From: a virus
Lineage: Duplodnaviria; Caudoviricetes
IMG/VR virus record: IMGVR_UViG_3300003523_000012
Location: 1 to 64,000 of that record
DNA length: 64,000 nucleotides
Direction: 5' to 3' (one strand)
Both the position numbers and the translations under genes were made by a program. Below, one piece after another: positions 5,419 through 56,353 of this stretch (its first letter is position 1; every line of letters starts with the position of its first letter). Below the pieces are notes generated by a model. The model made no database searches and had not been told where the DNA came from. It saw only the letters and a list, made by a program, of their open reading frames with translations.

Positions 5419-5507
5419 TTCTTATATATCTTTTATTAGTTATAAAATAAAAAAACGAAGTATATTACTTAATATACTTCGCTGGAATGAATGAGTAAAG
5501 ATTTTGC

Positions 5508-6209
5508 TTATGCCAATTGTAAGATCTTTTTGATCCACTCTAAAAGAGTCTGGAGCCAAGTCACTTTCTTCTCTTCTAGAACTTGCTCATTTTTGGGAGT
5601 AGGGATCTCTTCTTTATTCTCAACTACAATAGGTTTGGTCTCTTCAATTTGAGTTGTAGATCCTCCTTCTAATTGAGAAGGATCTTTGTCTTCAAAAGGG
5701 GATGGCTCAAATGTGAATGAGTTCAATCGGCGAAGCCAACCTTTGAGATACTTCCAAGCTCCAGAGCAAGATGAGAGATAAATCTTTCTACGATCCCAAA
5801 GCATTTGGAATAATTGAGCTTGAGGGTCCCACTCATTTAGAGTTCTAAGGCTCATTGGTCCAAAAATCCCATCAGCTGTGACACCAAGAACTTTCTGTAT
5901 CACTTTAATGTAGCCAGTTCCAGAGCCCCACACACAGTCAAAGCACAAGTTAGCAATAGACTGGTTCTTGATATTGTCACCTTGTATCTTTGACCAATAA
6001 AGAAGATCTGCTAGATCCAAGATTTCTTCATTAGTGATTCTTTTGAGATCTTCTACAGTAGGAGCCTTTTTTCCTTTTCTTCTACAGTATTCTTTATATG
6101 TAGCAATGGTGACTCCTTTCATTGTTGGGCCACCACTATCATCAGGATCATTAGCAAATCCGCCTTCCCAACCGAGTACTTTCTTTAGTGCTATCTCTAA
6201 GTTCGCCAT
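5508..6209 (-). CDS. Endolysin, glycoside hydrolase family 108 with peptidoglycan-binding region
   Basis: EGGFANDPDDSGGPTMKGVT catalytic signature; ADGIFGP and GWLRRL motifs. Confidence 0.88.
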   Translation of the reverse strand: MANLEIALKKVLGWEGGFANDPDDSGGPTMKGVTIATYKEYCRRKGKKAPTVEDLKRITNEEILDLADLLYWSKIQGDNIKNQSIANLCFDCVWGSGTGYIKVIQKVLGVTADGIFGPMSLRTLNEWDPQAQLFQMLWDRRKIYLSSCSGAWKYLKGWLRRLNSFTFEPSPFEDKDPSQLEGGSTTQIEETKPIVVENKEEIPTPKNEQVLEEKKVTWLQTLLEWIKKILQLA

Positions 6210-16256: not shown

Positions 16257-16676
16257 TTATCTGATTTTATCACAAATCTTATTATATAACACTTTAAAAT
16301 CATTTTTAGATCTTAGATTACTCATGTCTATATTAGCATCCCATATCTGGACTATTTTTGTATCATGCCAAGTTCTGTGATATGGAAAATTTGGAATAAA
16401 ATTAGCAGCCTCCCAATAAGAATAGCCTATGGCATTCATATCCCAATATCTTATAAATATATCCCCATCACTTGTATAAATTTCTTTTTGTATGTATTTA
16501 GGAAGATTTTTTACATCTTGCACAATGTATATGTCATATCTATCTTCATTCCACATCTTTATTATGTTCCCATTTCTTATATTTTTCAATTCTATAGGGA
16601 CAGATACATTTATGGAAAAAGGTGCATGTGCACGATGAATAGTGCTTTTAGATATCAAGGCTTTAAGTGGTTTCAT
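16257..16676 (-). CDS. Hypothetical protein, LISK..I.RAH family; paralog of 15825..16247
   Basis: MKPLKALISKSTIHRAH; shared C-terminal motifs. Confidence 0.75.
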   Translation of the reverse strand: MKPLKALISKSTIHRAHAPFSINVSVPIELKNIRNGNIIKMWNEDRYDIYIVQDVKNLPKYIQKEIYTSDGDIFIRYWDMNAIGYSYWEAANFIPNFPYHRTWHDTKIVQIWDANIDMSNLRSKNDFKVLYNKICDKIR

Positions 16677-16682
16677 CTTATA

Positions 16683-17486
16683 CTATAATGTATTTGGTTG
16701 GAAGATAAAGTCCATTGTGTGGTTCTTTTCTGCCCACTCTTCAATCTTTTCTAATTCTCTATCTGCTTGGTCAGAATACATCGAGTAATTGATAGTGACA
16801 CCACCAGGGAATTTGAACTCCCAAGTTCCATAGATAGAAGCTAGATTCTGTTTGCAGAATGCTACTACTAGTCTGAAAAAGTAAAAATTACCATATAAGT
16901 CTTGGATTCTGCATCTTTTATAGCAGTTTATCAAGATATCAGATTTTCCAAGATCACCTAAAATAACTAATTTATGTGAGTTCTCATTATAGTTATATGA
17001 CAAAGGAGCATTAAGATTCTGGTTGAATGTGTCAACTTCATACATAGAAGTGATCACATCCGCAAGAGAGAATCCAGACATTCCAGCAGTTCCTGAGAAT
17101 CCATTAGCAATAGTTCCAACTCCACCAAATAGAGAATAAGTAGACATCATCATTCTCTCAAGTGAGAAATCGCCCATTGCTCCATATCTCATGTTCTTTT
17201 GAAGTTTGTAACAGCCATGAACATTTTGTATCTGTTGTGGAAGCTGTATGATCTTGTTCAATATGTTGCACTTGCAAACGGCTTCATACGGAATGACATA
17301 CATACGCTCTTCAAGTGATTGGTCTACATTCAGCCAGAACCATTGAGCAGCTTGGATAATGTACTCAGGGATACGCTCTACTGGCAATGCAAACGGAAGT
17401 GCACAGCTTTGTGTGACCTCAGCTTGCACTCTCATTATGAATTGATAGTCTAATTGATCTTCTATTCTAGTTATGTCTTCAATCAT
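16683..17486 (-). CDS. Neck/head-tail adaptor protein (T4 gp13-like)
   Basis: C-terminal FKFPGGVTINY resembles gp13 LPGGVTLNG. Confidence 0.7.
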   Translation of the reverse strand: MIEDITRIEDQLDYQFIMRVQAEVTQSCALPFALPVERIPEYIIQAAQWFWLNVDQSLEERMYVIPYEAVCKCNILNKIIQLPQQIQNVHGCYKLQKNMRYGAMGDFSLERMMMSTYSLFGGVGTIANGFSGTAGMSGFSLADVITSMYEVDTFNQNLNAPLSYNYNENSHKLVILGDLGKSDILINCYKRCRIQDLYGNFYFFRLVVAFCKQNLASIYGTWEFKFPGGVTINYSMYSDQADRELEKIEEWAEKNHTMDFIFQPNTL

Positions 17487-47708: not shown

Positions 47709-47793
47709 GCGCCCGTAGCTCAGTTGGTTTGCGAAAGCTTAGAGTACGTGACTTTTAATCTCGGGGTCGTGGGTTCGAGTCCCACTGGGCGCA
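47709..47793 (+). tRNA. tRNA-Lys(UUU) with extra hairpin in D-loop
   Basis: Cloverleaf; loop CTTTTAA. Confidence 0.85.
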
Positions 47794-49382: not shown

Positions 49383-49388
49383 CAATAT

Positions 49389-49495
49389 TACAATATGGTG
49401 TAATGGTAACACACTCCTCATGCGGGATCGGATCGCGCACCGAATGAAGTTCTTAAATGAGCTAAGAGATGTGGGTTCAACCCCCACTATTGTAT
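49389..49495 (+). ncRNA. tRNA-like RNA with structured insert replacing the anticodon loop
   Basis: TACAATA/TATTGTA acceptor, GTGT/ACAC D-arm, GTGGG/CCCAC T-arm. Confidence 0.65.
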
Positions 49496-49501
49496 CAAAT
49501 T

Positions 49502-49579
49502 ATGTCTAACAAATTAAATTCAAAAAAGATGAAAAAGTACACACAACTGTAGGTTTGTATCTTAGATGTTCCTCCGTAA
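49502..49579 (+). other. Putative uORF with internal amber codon and Pro-Pro-stop end
   Basis: MSNKLNSKKMKKYTQL*(TAG 49550)VCILDVPP*(TAA). Confidence 0.45.
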
Positions 49580-49645
49580 TTAAGATGATTTTCTATTAAA
49601 AGTAATCAATTCAAAAATTCATTATTCAAATAAAAAATCATCAAA

Positions 49646-50068
49646 ATGAAAAAAGAACAATTTTTAAGATTCAAAGAAGACCTCAAGAAAGAGGCAAAAG
49701 AGCAAAAAGAATTAAAGAACCAAAGAAAATTTGTCCACATTAAAGGTAAGAGGACAATTAATCCTTATGATGCAGCTTGGAAAGTAAGATCGAATAGATG
49801 GGAGCTTGATAAGAAGTATGTCATCTATTATATCTTTAAACATAGAATTGAGGTGACATCATACAACAAGGAACAGGTAATCTGGGATGCATATGTGAAA
49901 CTGCATCAGCAATACAGTACCGCTCGCAGAGAACTCACTCTGACAAACGGCAAGAAGCAAATTAGTTATTACATCGACGCTCCAGACGGCCGTGACTACA
50001 CTCCTGAGGATGCAATGTATGATTTGATCAAAAGATATGACAAGATTATCAAACAATATGGGAACTAA
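49646..50068 (+). CDS. Hypothetical basic protein upstream of Pth2-like gene
   Basis: 140-aa ORF. Confidence 0.7.
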   Translation: MKKEQFLRFKEDLKKEAKEQKELKNQRKFVHIKGKRTINPYDAAWKVRSNRWELDKKYVIYYIFKHRIEVTSYNKEQVIWDAYVKLHQQYSTARRELTLTNGKKQISYYIDAPDGRDYTPEDAMYDLIKRYDKIIKQYGN

Positions 50069-50366
50069 TCATTAGAAAAAATCTCGCCTTTACGTGATCA
50101 TTGATGAATCTTTAGATCCTATATATGGATGTGTTCAAGGTGGACATGCTGTTGCTCAATATCTCTTAGAGAATCCTGATTCCAAATGGAAGAACAATTA
50201 TCTTATCTATTTGAAAGCTAATTTAGAAAGAATTGTTGTTAAACTCCAAAGATATGGAATATGTTATACTGAGTTCCACGAACCAGACCTGGATGGGAAG
50301 CTCACTGCAATAGCGGTGCTTGACAATCAAAAGGTCTTTAGGAATCTACATTTAATAGGAAGCTAA
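50058..50366 (+). CDS. Peptidyl-tRNA hydrolase 2 (Pth2)-like protein with in-frame TAG at 50073-75
   Basis: RLYVIIDESL...VQGGHAVAQY...LIYL...EFHEPDLDGKLTAIA; ATG 50058 is in frame with the called GTG 50094. Confidence 0.7.
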
Positions 50367-50380
50367 GGCTTGTATTAAAT

Positions 50381-50406
50381 AAAAAGGGAGCTAAGGCTCC
50401 CGATTT
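50381..50406 (+). terminator. Hairpin (terminator or processing site)
   Basis: GGGAGC-taag-GCTCCC. Confidence 0.45.
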
Positions 50407-50478
50407 GCTCGGTTAGTTCAATTGGCAGAACAAGTGGCCCTAACCCACATGACACGGGTTCGAACCCTGTACCGGGCA
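50407..50478 (+). tRNA. Probable amber suppressor tRNA (CUA), atypical C33
   Basis: GCTCGGT/ACCGGGC acceptor; GTGG-CCCTAAC-CCAC anticodon arm puts CTA at 34-36. Confidence 0.65.
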
Positions 50479-50487
50479 CATTTTTAT

Positions 50488-51229: not shown

Positions 51230-51353
51230 AGGGAGATAGTGTAATGTATGGTAGCACGCGTTAATTTTATGACTTTTAATATGAAAGTCTAACAGCAATT
51301 AATGTAAATGTCTTTGGTGTAACGTAGTGAAGGTTCGAATCCTTCTCTCCCTG
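51230..51353 (+). ncRNA. tRNA-like RNA with ACAGCAA module inserted at the anticodon loop
   Basis: AGGGAGA/TCTCCCT; CGTTA/TAACG anticodon stem enclosing GACTTT/AAAGTC-TAACAGCAA. Confidence 0.75.
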
Positions 51354-51358
51354 CTAAC

Positions 51359-51479
51359 CATGCAGTAGCTCAGTTGGTAGAGCACGTTTTTTGTGACTCT
51401 TGTAGAAGCGTGAGTCCTACAGCAATTGATTTTTGTCCTTCCAAGACCGGGGTCGTGGGTTCGAGTCCCACCTGCATGG
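51359..51479 (+). ncRNA. tRNA(UCC)-like RNA with 48-nt ACAGCAA insert between positions 28/29
   Basis: Removing 51387-51434 restores CGGTC-CTTCCAA-GACCG. Confidence 0.8.
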
Positions 51480-52986: not shown

Positions 52987-53060
52987 GCACTTGTAGCCCA
53001 ACTGGCAGAGGCCTATGACTTAGGATCATAAAAGTGTGAGTTCGAATCTCACCAGGTGCA
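52987..53060 (+). tRNA. tRNA-Leu(UAG), short variable arm
   Basis: Loop CTTAGGA. Confidence 0.85.
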
Positions 53061-53064
53061 CTAT

Positions 53065-53138
53065 GTTCCAGTAGCCCAACTGGCAGAGGCAATAGTTTGA
53101 GGGACTATACAGTGGCAGTTCGAATCTGCCTTGGAACA
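53065..53138 (+). tRNA. tRNA-Leu(GAG), short variable arm
   Basis: Loop TTGAGGG. Confidence 0.85.
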
Positions 53139-53149
53139 CAAATTAATAT

Positions 53150-53278: not shown

Positions 53279-54262
53279 ATGATGGATAAAAAAGTATTTG
53301 AAATATTTAACTCGAGCTATTCAAAAATAGAATTGTGTAAAAATCTTGATTTAGATGTATCTCACATGAATGGAAGTAATGTTGATAAATTACTAAATAA
53401 GATTATGAAAGATTCTGATTTTGAAATGGATATTACTGCTAACGGTTTTAAAGAAAGGCGTTTAGCCAGAGAAAAAAAGAAATGGGAAAAAGAACAACCA
53501 AAATGTAAATTTTGTGGAAAAGTTCTTCCATTTGAAAGAAGATTTAATAAATTTTGTAGTTCTAGTTGTTCTGCTAAAAGTGGAAATAAACAAAGAGCTA
53601 AAAATGGTTATACTTCAAAAGGTAAAACAAAAAAAGTTAATTGTTTAAAGTGTAATAAAGAAATTGAAGTAAATATCAATTGTGGACAAAAATCTTATTT
53701 TTGTAAAGAGTGTAGACCTAAATCTGTAAATAGTCTTAGACTAATTGAACATACTTGTATAATTTGTGGAAAAAAATATTTTACTAAAAGATATATTTCT
53801 AATCATTGCTCACCAAAATGTTCAGCAGCAGATCCAAACATTAGAAAAAAGATTAGTGAAACTCAATTACAACACGTAAAAGATGGAACTCATAAAGGTT
53901 GGACATCTAGAAATATTAGATCTTATCCTGAAAAATTCTTTGAACAAGTATTAAAGAATAATTTTATAGAATTCAAACAAGAAGTCTATATAGAAAAATT
54001 CAAATATTTCTTAGATTTTCTTATAGAAATTGGTAATAATAAAATTGATCTTGAAATAGATGGTAAACAGCATAAATATGATGATAGAAAAGATAAAGAT
54101 GTTGAAAGAGATCAAAATCTTAAAAATGCTGGATATATCATTTATAGAATAGAATGGAATGAGATAAATTCTAAAGAAGGTAAGACAAAAATGAAAGAGA
54201 AAATTAATAAATTTTTAGAGTTTATTGAACAATATAAATTAGCCCAGTACTCCAATAGGTAG
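53279..54262 (+). CDS. Free-standing putative homing endonuclease (zinc ribbons + DUF559/Vsr-like nuclease)
   Basis: CxxC repeats; YFLDF..LEIDGKQH...D.ERD..L...GY.I.RI.W; lower GC than neighbours. Confidence 0.8.
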   Translation: MMDKKVFEIFNSSYSKIELCKNLDLDVSHMNGSNVDKLLNKIMKDSDFEMDITANGFKERRLAREKKKWEKEQPKCKFCGKVLPFERRFNKFCSSSCSAKSGNKQRAKNGYTSKGKTKKVNCLKCNKEIEVNINCGQKSYFCKECRPKSVNSLRLIEHTCIICGKKYFTKRYISNHCSPKCSAADPNIRKKISETQLQHVKDGTHKGWTSRNIRSYPEKFFEQVLKNNFIEFKQEVYIEKFKYFLDFLIEIGNNKIDLEIDGKQHKYDDRKDKDVERDQNLKNAGYIIYRIEWNEINSKEGKTKMKEKINKFLEFIEQYKLAQYSNR

Positions 54263-54314
54263 AGGGAGTCGGCTCAAACCCGATACAGTGTGAGTTCGAA
54301 TCTCACCTGGGCTA
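54241..54314 (+). tRNA. tRNA-Leu(CAA), short variable arm
   Basis: Loop CTCAAAC; 5' end overlaps endonuclease ORF. Confidence 0.8.
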
Positions 54315-54317
54315 CAA

Positions 54318-54506
54318 ACAGAATACCTATCTGCAATAGGCATGATACATTCACAGCAATGCTTTATCCCAGAAGGTGTAACTCAAATGGACTAGAGTCT
54401 TGACATCCTGAAGAATAGCAGCTCTTTTTAGGGAAGTGTCATAGAGATCCGGGTTCGAATCCCGGCACCCTCAGATCTTAGATCCTTTATAATGTATTGA
54501 TTCTGT
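54318..54506 (+). ncRNA. ACAGCAA stem enclosing a tRNA-like domain (54372-54473)
   Basis: ACAGAAT/ATTCTGT and GATACATT/AATGTATT stems; inner D-arm, elongated anticodon arm, CCGGG-TTCGAAT-CCCGG. Confidence 0.7.
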
Positions 54507-55924: not shown

Positions 55925-56265
55925 GCTGGCGTCAATGACGCTCTGGTGAAAGGATGTTTGGACGAGGGTTCGACTCCCTCCGGGTCCACTATGATTCTAT
56001 AGAATCACAATTAGCTTATCAACCAAGATGTTGAGAAAGTTAAGATTTGCGAGAACTTAATATGAGACTCGTGATTCAGCGCACTAGCCGGCTGCGTAAT
56101 TGCTGGCTTTATAATTGGGCCCGTTTGGTTTTGACAGCATTTGAGTAAGAAGAGAAGAGATGCTGGTGAGTAAGAATAATTCACAAATCTTACACAACTC
56201 GTCTTGCTGCGTAGTCTAGGACTATAGCAATGAGAGGTCTAGGGTGGCACCAAAGTCCACCCATT
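55925..56265 (+). ncRNA. ssrA: Circularly permuted (two-piece) tmRNA
   Basis: Acceptor piece ends GAGGG-TTCGACT-CCCTC-CGGGTCC-A (55988). Coding piece starts GGGCCCG-TTTGGTTTTGACAGC (56117), giving G3-U70. Tag ...HKSYTTRLAA* ends 56214. Outer boundaries approximate. Confidence 0.85.
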
Positions 56266-56269
56266 TTTT

Positions 56270-56343
56270 GGCTCGGTAGCCCAACTGGCAGAGGCATCAG
56301 ACTTAAACCCTGTATAGTGTGAGTTCGAATCTCACTCGGGCCA
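56270..56343 (+). tRNA. tRNA-Leu(UAA), short variable arm
   Basis: Loop CTTAAAC. Confidence 0.82.
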
Positions 56344-56353
56344 CTTTTTTCTC

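What the first reader, a model, noticed from the sequence alone, without database searches (positions are those of the whole stretch)
49502..50478. Amber-readthrough circuit: uORF with internal TAG, Pth2-like gene with in-frame TAG, and an adjacent CUA tRNA
Seen: the Pth2-like ORF called from GTG 50094 starts inside the family's first strand (RLYVIIDESL). An in-frame ATG at 50058, overlapping the upstream gene's end, gives MGTNH*KKSRLYVIID with TAG at 50073. Upstream, a uORF reads ...MKKYTQL*(TAG)VCILDVPP*(TAA). The first tRNA after the gene has anticodon arm GTGG-CCCTAAC-CCAC, i.e. CUA. TAG still ends ordinary genes here (polB, helicase, vWA), so the code is not globally reassigned. Established: Pth recycles peptidyl-tRNA, Pro-Pro-stop impairs termination, and some gut phages recode TAG. 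Inference: Pth2 synthesis is gated by amber readthrough, either sensing RF1 shortage or timed by the suppressor. This could be an intermediate stage towards code 15.
Basis: partly seen in the sequence, partly recalled or inferred. Interest (0 to 1): 0.85.

Follow-up and report, generated by a model that had tools for sequence, protein, structure and literature searches.

The report
Phage operon that senses stop-codon suppression
Next to its amber-suppressor tRNA, this phage carries a small operon that seems to switch on only when ribosomes read through a TAG stop codon, and the same design recurs in many large phages, with the sensed stop codon always matching the neighbouring suppressor tRNA.

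Summary
The TAG at 50073-75 sits between an ATG and the conserved first strand of a Pth2-fold protein. It is kept in about 15 distinct relatives, most of which have no alternative start codon. A tRNA-CUA follows the gene in every one of them.

The uORF is also real, but its conserved start is 49529, not 49502. It reads M-x(1-8)-TAG-x(4-16)-Pro-Pro-stop. At least 35 different versions lie at the same place in diverse large phages.

A hairpin links the end of this leader to the ATG of the next gene ("A", 49646-50068). Matched hairpin arms pair much better than mismatched ones (0 of 5000 permutations).

The leader's internal stop matches the linked suppressor: TAG with tRNA-CUA, TGA with tRNA-UCA, TAA with tRNA-UUA (Lak phages).

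My best reading is a translational attenuator that senses suppression. Only ribosomes that read through the stop reach the Pro-Pro-stop, melt the hairpin and free gene A. The coupled Pth2-like gene B follows, and in this clade it carries a second TAG lock.

The genomes carrying the module use the standard code, so "an intermediate towards code 15" is not supported. I found no prior description in the literature. None of this has been tested experimentally.

The parts
49529..49579 (+). Leader mini-ORF MKKYTQL-TAG-VCILDVPP-TAA. This is the proposed sensor of amber suppression.
   Evidence: Sequence. Conserved in frame, with all indels in multiples of three and with synonymous changes, in WIN, L004, L005, L007, L011, L013, L111, L112, L153 and L181. 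The same design, in at least 35 distinct versions, lies about 400-600 nt upstream of the Pth2-like gene in diverse phage contigs.
49550..49552 (+). In-frame TAG inside the leader
   Evidence: Invariant in all relatives and in contigs of further runs. Replaced by TGA where the linked tRNA is UCA, and by TAA where it is UUA.
49571..49579 (+). Pro-Pro-TAA at the end of the leader. This is the inferred site of slow termination or stalling.
   Evidence: Pro-Pro-stop, or a related ending such as RGPD, RSPN, GRASP-stop or RGP-stop, closes the leader in all lineages. Stalling itself is inferred from what is known of Pro-stop termination; it was not tested.
49584..49592 (+). 5' arm (GATGATTTT) of the hairpin that masks the start of gene A. 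It begins 5 nt after the leader's stop codon.
   Evidence: RNAfold. L013 shows two compensatory changes (GATAAGTTT pairing with AAACTTGTC). Analogous hairpins occur in 22 or more distinct loci. Matched arms average -13.2 kcal/mol against -7.0 for mismatched arms, with 0 of 5000 permutations doing as well. The design also holds in the TGA, TAA and RGPD classes.
49634..49642 (+). 3' arm (AAAATCATC) of the hairpin. It ends 3 nt before the ATG of gene A.
   Evidence: In many relatives the 3' arm includes the ATG itself: CCATAA (Pro codon plus stop) pairs with TTATGG.
49646..50068 (+). Gene A: a 140-aa protein of unknown function, with a long helical hairpin, a small beta domain and the family motif YVxYYIxKH
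   Evidence: ORF. Homologues sit between the leader and the Pth2-like gene in nearly all of 72 loci, Lak phages included. AlphaFold pLDDT is 94.5. No informative fold or family match was found.
50058..50366 (+). Gene B: a Pth2-fold protein of 102 codons that includes one TAG. Its ATG overlaps the stop codon of gene A.
   Evidence: AlphaFold pLDDT is 91.5. The top 13 Foldseek PDB matches comprise archaeal and human Pth2/Bit1 entries and structural-genomics proteins that I take to be of the same fold (TM 0.59-0.73). It matches PHROG 3668 'hydrolase' at 1.4e-8. There is no Pfam hit. 220 homologues were found.
50073..50075 (+). In-frame TAG at codon 6 of gene B
   Evidence: Kept in about 15 distinct relatives. 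It sits at codon 3 instead of codon 6 in L008/L009. In L039 and L066 the TAG follows directly on an upstream in-frame ORF. It is unchanged in four further runs, while 50094 varies.
50386..50401 (+). GC-rich hairpin (GGGAGC-TAAG-GCTCCC) between gene B and the tRNA. Its role is unknown.
   Evidence: The scan lists it as terminator-like only on the minus strand. On the plus strand the T tract is weak.
50407..50479 (+). tRNA with anticodon CUA (amber suppressor) and C33. It has elongator-type features, including a G1-C72 pair.
   Evidence: ARAGORN and Rfam tRNA at 54.1 bits. A suppressor is the first tRNA downstream of gene B in 85 of 92 loci. C33 occurs in 23 of 51 distinct CUA tRNAs against 22 of 573 sense tRNAs.

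Best explanation
The region 49529-50479 is a four-part module: a leader mini-ORF, gene A, gene B (Pth2 fold) and tRNA-CUA. I read it as a translational attenuator whose input is stop-codon suppression.

**Proposed mechanism**
1. A ribosome starts the leader at ATG 49529.
2. Without an active suppressor it terminates at TAG 49550. The hairpin 49584-49592 / 49634-49642 stays closed, so the start of gene A stays masked.
3. When tRNA-CUA decodes the TAG, the ribosome runs on to Pro-Pro-TAA, where termination is slow.
4. The ribosome's footprint then covers the 5' arm of the hairpin, which frees the ATG of gene A.
5. Gene B is translationally coupled to A, because its ATG overlaps A's stop. In this clade B needs a second readthrough at TAG 50073.
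6. A and B are therefore made only when suppression is working, and steeply so.

**What is shown**
- Both in-frame TAGs are conserved, with coding constraint on both sides.
- The hairpin is conserved and its arms co-vary.
- The suppressor tRNA is tightly linked to the module.
- The leader's internal stop matches the tRNA anticodon.
- B has the Pth2 fold.

**What is inferred**
- That the TAG is really decoded, and that the ribosome stalls at Pro-Pro-stop.
- The direction of control, i.e. that suppression turns the operon on.
- What A and B do. My guess is that B hydrolyses peptidyl- or aminoacyl-tRNA. It would either clear the by-products of suppression or hold the suppressor's own activity in check, and A might be a tRNA-binding partner.
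For: **1. The TAG in gene B is decoded.**
- About 15 distinct relatives keep an ATG, 1-6 codons, a TAG, and then x-E-P-R-L-Y-V/I-I-I-D.
- The Arg, Leu, Tyr, Pro and Val codons after the TAG vary synonymously (CGC/CGT/CGA/CGG and so on).
- The window's GTG codon is GTA, GTC or ATC in most relatives.
- In L008/L009 the TAG has moved to codon 3 in a leader of the same length.
- Contigs from four more runs show the same.

**2. The leader is conserved.**
- It has an internal TAG and ends Pro-Pro-stop, with all indels in multiples of three.
- There are at least 35 distinct versions, always upstream of gene A.
- The control patterns with TGA or TAA as the internal stop give 2 and 5 hits, against 67 for TAG.
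- Each of four genomes has only one such leader.

**3. The hairpin runs from the leader's end to A's ATG in every class**.
- Matched arms average -13.2 kcal/mol against -7.0 for mismatched arms; 0 of 5000 permutations do as well.

**4. The internal stop matches the linked tRNA.**
- TAG goes with CUA in dozens of loci.
- TGA goes with UCA in L018, L059 and L062, where tRNA-UCA lies 41-142 nt after gene B.
- TAA goes with UUA in Lak phages.

**5. A suppressor is the first tRNA after gene B in 85 of 92 loci**.

**6. B has the Pth2 fold**.

**7. In-frame TAGs are confined to this module.** G000, G001, G002 and G005 use the standard code. The baseplate wedge gene and TerL are intact under table 11.
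Against: - There is no experimental evidence for readthrough, for stalling or for regulation.
- The amino acid carried by the tRNA is unknown. C33 is atypical and could weaken decoding.
- The TGA and TAA leader versions each probably reflect a single evolutionary event, so the three-way match rests on few independent switches.
- In the permutation test the loci are related to one another, so its p-value is too optimistic.
- The window's hairpin is AT-rich and modest (about -10 to -16 kcal/mol).
- The CCN-TAA at the leader's end is partly dictated by pairing with uuAUGg. The second Pro could therefore be an RNA constraint rather than a peptide constraint.
- G000 is only about 44% complete by CheckV, so recoded genes in the missing part cannot be excluded.
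- B has no Pfam PTH2 hit, and its catalytic residues were not checked.
Confidence: 0.68

Rival explanations
1. The leader senses release-factor activity rather than the suppressor. Readthrough would rise when RF1 is scarce or inhibited during infection (RF2 for the TGA versions), much as the prfB frameshift site senses RF2. A and B would then respond to poor termination.
For: - Readthrough at a stop codon is always a competition between a release factor and a tRNA, so the same leader reports both.
- A Pth-like output makes sense when termination fails.
- The anatomy is the same as.
Against: - The internal stop tracks the anticodon of the adjacent tRNA.
- TAA, used in Lak phages, is read by both RF1 and RF2, so it is a poor sensor for either factor alone.
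- A suppressor tRNA lies directly downstream of gene B in 85 of 92 loci.
- No phage release-factor gene or anti-RF gene was seen in the module.
Confidence: 0.14
2. The conserved 'second half' of the leader is only an RNA element, namely the 5' arm region of the hairpin. Just the short ATG-to-TAG minigene is translated. It may promote peptidyl-tRNA drop-off, like the lambda bar minigenes, and so create the substrate for the Pth2-like enzyme. On this view the leader is not read through.
For: - The first halves are 2-8 codons long, which is minigene size.
- CCN-TAA pairs with the ATG region of gene A, so part of the conservation belongs to the RNA.
- The classical link between minigenes and Pth is from my own knowledge.
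Against: - The Pro-Pro-stop is in frame with the internal stop in every lineage. No other stop lies between them, although the second-half length varies from 5 to 16 codons.
- Indels in the second half are multiples of three, and the Val, Leu and Pro codons there change synonymously.
- Some leaders carry two or three in-frame TAGs.
- This idea does not explain the TAG inside gene B, which must be decoded.
Confidence: 0.09
3. The TAGs are neutral passengers. Because the phage carries a suppressor, nonsense mutations near it are tolerated and have drifted in. They would be the first step of recoding, with no regulatory role.
For: Borges et al. propose that acquiring a suppressor lets in-frame stops accumulate.
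Against: - In-frame TAGs are confined to this module in four genomes.
- They persist across lineages in which B is only about 50% identical.
- The TAG in B moved position but was not lost.
- The stop type switches together with the tRNA.
- The leader is tied to a co-varying hairpin.
Confidence: 0.04
4. TAG serves as a start codon read by an initiator-like tRNA-CUA. C33 is found in some initiator tRNAs, and the TAG in B sits about where homologues have their ATG.
For: - The TAG lies 3-4 codons before the conserved Arg. Homologues without the TAG start 2-4 codons before it.
- C33 is enriched in these tRNAs.
Against: - The tRNA has a paired G1-C72 end, U11-A24, and only two G-C pairs at the foot of the anticodon stem. 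These are elongator features (the identity rules are from my own knowledge).
- An upstream in-frame ATG is always present in this clade, or an upstream in-frame ORF in L039/L066.
- The leader's TAG is internal, with conserved codons before it.
Confidence: 0.03
5. The TAG is a sequencing or assembly error, or gene B is a dying pseudogene.
For: None beyond the presence of a stop codon.
Against: - The same feature appears in many independent assemblies and samples, with a signature of purifying selection.
- The full-length fold is predicted with high confidence.
Confidence: 0.01

Closest known systems
Leader-peptide translational attenuation (ermC, cat and cmlA type)
   Same: A short leader ORF lies upstream, a stem-loop masks the start of the next gene, and a ribosome stalled late in the leader opens that stem-loop.
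   Different: In those systems the signal is an antibiotic bound to the ribosome. Here the signal would be readthrough of an in-frame stop codon by a phage suppressor tRNA, and the stall site is reached only after readthrough. The stall itself was not tested here.
tnaC leader of the tryptophanase operon
   Same: A leader peptide ends in Pro-stop, and slow release at the stop codon is the regulatory event.
   Different: tnaC senses free tryptophan and controls Rho-dependent termination. It has no internal stop codon and no link to a suppressor tRNA. Here the output seems to be unmasking of a start codon.
prfB (RF2) autoregulatory frameshift site
   Same: An in-frame stop codon early in an ORF acts as a sensor of how well that stop is decoded.
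   Different: prfB uses a +1 frameshift within the regulated gene itself and reports RF2 level. Here there is no frameshift. The sensor sits in a separate leader (and, in this clade, also in gene B), and the matching partner is a tRNA.
Engineered amber-codon leader switches (a TAG placed in tna or trp leaders to couple unnatural-amino-acid incorporation to transcription; reviewed in PMC6412442)
   Same: The logic is identical: the downstream gene is expressed only if the leader is translated beyond an inserted UAG by a suppressor tRNA.
   Different: Those switches are man-made and transcriptional, acting by masking a rut site. This one is natural, is conserved in many phages, and appears to be translational.
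Code-change modules of recoded phages (suppressor tRNA plus aaRS plus release factor; Borges et al.) and PTH2 genes of jumbo phages (Iyer et al., PMC7824862)
   Same: Phage-encoded suppressor tRNAs are grouped with translation factors. PTH2 is already known to occur in jumbo phages and has been proposed to serve ribosome rescue.
   Different: Neither paper links PTH2 to suppressor tRNAs, to in-frame stops or to a leader. The carrier genomes here use the standard code. No aaRS or release-factor gene lies in the module.

Membership tests
Pth2 / Bit1 peptidyl-tRNA hydrolase family (Pfam PF01981) | Pth2 alpha/beta fold | tested here: met
   The AlphaFold model (pLDDT 91.5) gives 13 top PDB matches: Pth2/Bit1 entries (3erj, 1q7s, 1xty) and structural-genomics proteins (2zv3, 2gax, 1wn2, 1rlk) that I take to be of the same fold, on my own knowledge for the untitled ones. 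TM scores are 0.59-0.73 and probability is 1.0. The next matches drop to TM 0.24.
Pth2 / Bit1 peptidyl-tRNA hydrolase family (Pfam PF01981) | A match to the family's sequence profile | tested here: not met
   No PF01981 hit even at E up to 1. A profile of 50 homologues finds no PDB chain at E up to 10. The only sequence match is PHROG 3668 'hydrolase' at 1.4e-8. It is best called Pth2-like, a divergent phage branch.
Pth2 / Bit1 peptidyl-tRNA hydrolase family (Pfam PF01981) | Catalytic residues and peptidyl-tRNA hydrolase activity | not tested
   The invariant residues of the phage family are Q27, G28, H30, W44, N46, E75, D77 and T83. They were not superposed on the Pth2 active site. Activity needs an assay.
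tRNA (Rfam RF00005), amber suppressor | Cloverleaf with a 7-nt anticodon loop carrying CUA | tested here: met
   ARAGORN and Rfam at 54.1 bits against a cut-off of 29.
tRNA (Rfam RF00005), amber suppressor | The near-universal U33 | tested here: not met
   Position 33 is C. C33 is found in 23 of 51 distinct linked CUA tRNAs against 22 of 573 sense tRNAs, so it is a recurrent feature and not an error.
tRNA (Rfam RF00005), amber suppressor | The tRNA is charged and decodes UAG in vivo | not testable with these tools
   There is indirect support only: conserved in-frame TAGs next to it. It has no close paralogue in the tRNA array (70% identity at best), so its amino-acid identity is unknown.
Leader-peptide translational attenuator | A short ORF upstream, plus a stem-loop that masks the downstream start and overlaps or abuts the leader's end | tested here: met
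Leader-peptide translational attenuator | Signal-dependent ribosome stalling in the leader that changes expression of the downstream gene | not testable with these tools
   Inferred from the Pro-Pro-stop (or RGP-type) endings and from the geometry of the hairpin.
TAG-recoded (code 15) phage | Many genes with in-frame TAG, and a coding-density gain under TAG=Q | tested here: not met
   - ORF coverage is 0.865 under table 11 and 0.893 under TAG=Q. The TGA=W control gives 0.903, so TAG=Q adds nothing.
- TAG ends 21 of about 102-110 ORFs.
- The baseplate wedge gene is intact.
- Caveat: the record is about 44% complete.

The most novel reading that the evidence does not exclude
The module is a self-contained suppression homeostat. 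The leader measures how strongly the phage's own suppressor tRNA reads the stop codon. Its outputs, protein A (a tRNA-binding helical arm) and the Pth2-like hydrolase B, then act back on the suppressor's aminoacyl- or peptidyl-tRNA. This feedback would set a fixed, low level of readthrough in phages whose genes still end in TAG. C33 would be part of that tuning. If so, regulated partial stop-codon ambiguity would be a phage strategy in its own right, not just a step towards recoding.
Probability: 0.25. Interest if true: 0.92.

Novelty: new variant of a known kind. Interest (0 to 1): 0.86.

Why it matters
- **An open question in phage recoding.** Phage suppressor tRNAs are thought to drive the switch between genetic codes, but nobody knows how a phage monitors or controls suppression. 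This module would be the first natural sensor of stop-codon suppression.
- **It is testable.** Its clear sequence grammar (internal stop, stall motif, start-masking hairpin) can be checked with simple reporters.
- **It names two proteins as the output of suppression.** These are the Pth2-like enzyme and protein A, an unknown protein. That gives a handle on how phages cope with, or tune, readthrough.
- **It changes the picture for standard-code phages.** Suppressor tRNAs in standard-code jumbo phages sit inside a regulated unit. They are not just leftovers or forerunners of recoding.
- **It has practical uses.**
  - The leader and hairpin are a compact, evolved part for genetic-code-expansion work.
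  - The module's signature helps annotation: gene callers truncate or miss gene B.

Tried and rejected
**Database and fold searches that gave nothing**
- Pfam gave no hit for A or B.
- A sequence-profile search of the PDB for B gave nothing.
- For protein A, Foldseek PDB, the ESM Atlas and a large sequence search (32 unnamed homologues) gave no function.
- VIA-align found only generic helical hairpins for A (Z up to 7.2). The seryl-tRNA synthetase and FemA arms are among many ties, so these are not evidence.

- Judging the code from the 12-kb loci failed, because tRNA arrays inflate every alternative code. Whole-record analysis replaced it.
- TerL family PF03237 was not found in G000 or in four of the five relatives, which are fragments. 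It was found only in G005.
- A metagenome pattern scan added only one new variant. Most hits of the viral pattern scan were chance matches.
- No sequencing run holds more than 23% of the sampled words. The laid contigs come from relatives, so they show conservation but not expression. One is from a metatranscriptome library, which does not prove transcription.

**Ideas I considered and dropped**
- The leader's TAGGTTTG as a Bacteroidota -7 promoter box (TAnnTTTG). The motif is not kept in L004, L011 or L013.
- The uORF starting at ATG 49502. Single-base indels in relatives break that frame.
- An initiator-tRNA reading of the TAG. The tRNA has elongator features.
Full report
**Context.** The window is the first 64 kb of a 93.9-kb linear IMG/VR virus record. 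CheckV puts it at about 44% complete. The record carries polB, a helicase, NrdD, a DNA ligase, a baseplate wedge gene and an array of at least 32 tRNAs at 47.7-57.5 kb. Related contigs come mostly from bovine and rumen-type metagenomes.

ATG 50058, TAG 50073-75 and GTG 50094 share a frame. ARAGORN and Rfam both call a tRNA at 50407-50479 with anticodon CUA. Its anticodon loop is CCCUAAC, so position 33 is C.

**The TAG in gene B is a conserved, decoded codon.**
- I found 220 homologues of the protein and fetched the DNA of the closest ones.
- Every close relative has the same layout: an ATG, 1-6 codons, a TAG, then x-E-P-R-L-Y-V/I-I-I-D.
- The Pro, Arg, Leu, Tyr and Val codons after the TAG change synonymously. 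That is the signature of a translated sequence.
- The codon that is GTG here is GTA, GTC or ATC in most relatives. In them no canonical start lies after the TAG.
- In L008/L009 the TAG sits at codon 3 instead of codon 6, in a leader of the same length. In L039 and L066 the TAG follows directly on an upstream in-frame ORF.
- Contigs of four further runs keep the TAG while neighbouring bases, 50094 included, differ.
- The AlphaFold model (pLDDT 91.5) puts strand 1 at L11-D16. A GTG start would therefore remove the nearly invariant R-L-Y.
- Sequencing error and pseudogene are excluded.

**Gene B has the Pth2 fold.** The 13 best PDB matches comprise archaeal or human Pth2/Bit1 entries and structural-genomics proteins that I take to be of the same fold (TM 0.59-0.73). 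After them the scores collapse. There is no Pfam PTH2 hit, and the only sequence match is a PHROG annotated as a hydrolase. I therefore call it Pth2-like. PTH2 genes are already known in jumbo phages and have been proposed to serve ribosome rescue (PMC7824862).

**The suppressor tRNA is linked to gene B far beyond this clade.** In 92 loci (76 distinct B sequences), the first tRNA downstream on the same strand is CUA in 82 and UCA in 3. The median gap is about 65 nt.

**The uORF is a conserved leader.**
- Its conserved start is ATG 49529. Single-base indels break the frame from 49502.
- Relatives read, for example, MRKVHTSL-TAG-VRVLDVPP, MKRFTHL-TAG-VSMVLDVPP and MKKIKEQL-TAG-VFDILNVPP. All indels are multiples of three, and the Val, Leu and Pro codons change synonymously.
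- A pattern search then found the same grammar about 400-600 nt upstream of gene B in dozens of diverse loci, including many whose gene B has a plain ATG. Examples are MIMR-TAG-ITYKPP, MTH-TAG-VLNPP and MRY-TAG-VLWPP.
- A second class has two or three TAGs and ends in IRGPD, IRSPN or GRASP-stop.
- The same pattern with TGA or TAA as the internal stop gives 2 and 5 hits, against 67 for TAG.
- Each of four genomes has only one such leader.

**Between the leader and gene B lies gene A.** It is homologous across nearly all loci, Lak phages included, and carries the motif YVxYYIxKH. Its model is confident (pLDDT 94.5): a long helical hairpin plus a small beta domain. I found no informative match for it.

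**A hairpin ties the leader to gene A.**
- In the window, GATGATTTT (49584-49592, starting 5 nt after the leader's TAA) pairs with AAAATCATC (49634-49642, ending 3 nt before ATG 49646).
- L013 has two compensatory changes in this stem.
- In many lineages the last Pro codon plus the stop (CCATAA) pairs with the start region of gene A (TTATGG).
- Over 22 distinct loci, matched arms average -13.2 kcal/mol and mismatched arms -7.0. None of 5000 permutations does as well. Because the loci are related, this p-value is too optimistic.
- The design also holds in the TGA, TAA and RGPD classes.
- No U-tract follows the stem, so it is not an intrinsic terminator.

**The internal stop matches the linked tRNA.**
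- The three loci that have tRNA-UCA instead of tRNA-CUA after gene B have leaders with TGA, such as MKRI-TGA-TRNRGPDNV.
- Lak phages have MKLQHW-TAA-VTCDRGP-TAA, with a tRNA-UUA just upstream.
- Each of these variants is probably a single evolutionary event, so the number of independent switches is small.

**Mechanism.**
- The anatomy is that of erm- or cat-type translational attenuation, with readthrough as the input.
- Only ribosomes that decode the internal stop reach the Pro-rich end, where termination is slow. There they cover the 5' arm of the hairpin and free A's start.
- A ribosome terminating at the TAG sits 18-30 nt upstream, so its footprint does not reach the hairpin.
- B is coupled to A, and in this clade it needs a second readthrough.
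- The shown steps are conservation, co-variation and linkage. Decoding, stalling and the direction of control are inferred.

**What the module is not.**
- It is not evidence of a code-15 intermediate.
- G000, G001, G002 and G005 (364 kb, 94% complete) show no gain under TAG=Q beyond the TGA=W control.
- TAG ends 7-20% of their ORFs.
- The baseplate wedge gene and TerL are intact under table 11.
- The in-frame TAGs are confined to this module.

**Function of A and B.** This is unknown. Two readings fit.
- *Clean-up.* Suppression causes readthrough and stalled ribosomes, which raises the demand for peptidyl-tRNA hydrolysis. The phage also carries a permuted tmRNA.
- *Feedback on the suppressor itself.* This would suit a phage whose own genes still end in TAG. 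It could also relate to the marked enrichment of C33 in these suppressors: 23 of 51, against 22 of 573 sense tRNAs.

**Novelty.**
- Borges et al. describe suppressor tRNAs, release factors and aminoacyl-tRNA synthetases as code-change genes, and they note standard-code phages that carry suppressors.
- Kienbeck et al. link theta ribozymes to suppressor tRNAs.
- Neither paper mentions a hydrolase, and none of my other searches returned a paper describing a hydrolase, a stop-containing leader or this operon.
- The nearest analogue is man-made: a TAG inserted into the tna or trp leader (PMC6412442).
- The library lacks most subscription journals, so earlier work cannot be fully excluded.

Noticed in passing
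window 55929-56214: Rfam match to the permuted tmRNA family (RF04321), 56.8 bits against a cut-off of 47, inside the phage's tRNA array. A phage-borne two-piece tmRNA beside a suppressor tRNA and a Pth2-like gene suggests a ribosome-rescue toolkit.
   Followed up: no
window 16257-17486 (-), 62616-64253 (+, runs past the window), G000 77066-77794 (-): Three TAG-terminated genes are each followed, in the same frame and 1-2 codons later, by the ATG of a gene that starts with the shared basic tag (K..L..LISK..I.RAH). Amber readthrough would fuse each pair. This could be chance, or it could be programmed fusion.
   Followed up: partly
tRNA-CUA genes in the window (50407-50479) and in loci L004-L112: C33 instead of the near-universal U33 is strongly enriched in the phage suppressor tRNAs. 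It occurs in 23 of 51 distinct CUA tRNAs, 2 of 4 UCA and 1 of 3 UUA, against 22 of 573 sense tRNAs in the same loci. Within this clade, L005 has U33.
   Followed up: partly
window 47709-47793, 51230-51353, 51359-51479, 54372-54473: These Rfam tRNA matches are 85-124 nt long, so the tRNAs carry inserts. ARAGORN does not call most of them.
   Followed up: no
window 49384-49497: A tRNA-like element lies between tRNA-Trp and the leader. It has acceptor-like and T-arm-like ends (GTGGGTTCAACCCCCAC) and a long internal insert. Neither ARAGORN nor Rfam calls it. The leader begins about 30 nt after it, so the operon's mRNA may be released by tRNA processing.
   Followed up: no
window 52987-53139, 54241-54315, 56270-56344: All the tRNAs with Leu anticodons are about 75 nt long with a short variable loop. 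Bacterial tRNA-Leu normally has a long variable arm.
   Followed up: no
L025, L050 (about 5500-5700) and L039, L066 (about 6000): In some lineages the stop-containing leader is in frame with gene A itself. In others, gene B follows an upstream ORF directly after a TAG with no ATG of its own. The readthrough lock is thus built in several different ways.
   Followed up: partly
L005 8466-8532; L013 4027-4097; L072/L075/L078: Some relatives carry more than one suppressor: a second, 67-nt tRNA-CUA in L005; a tRNA-UUA in L013; and both tRNA-UCA and tRNA-CUA flanking the module in L072, L075 and L078.
   Followed up: no
L002 (Lak-A2) about 1440-1500: The Lak-A2 homologue of gene B has no ATG, GTG or TTG between the preceding stop codons and its conserved first strand.
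   Followed up: no
whole record G000: The record is a linear fragment that CheckV puts at about 44% complete. No terminase was found by PF03237, so statements about the phage's genetic code cover only the 94 kb held.
   Followed up: yes
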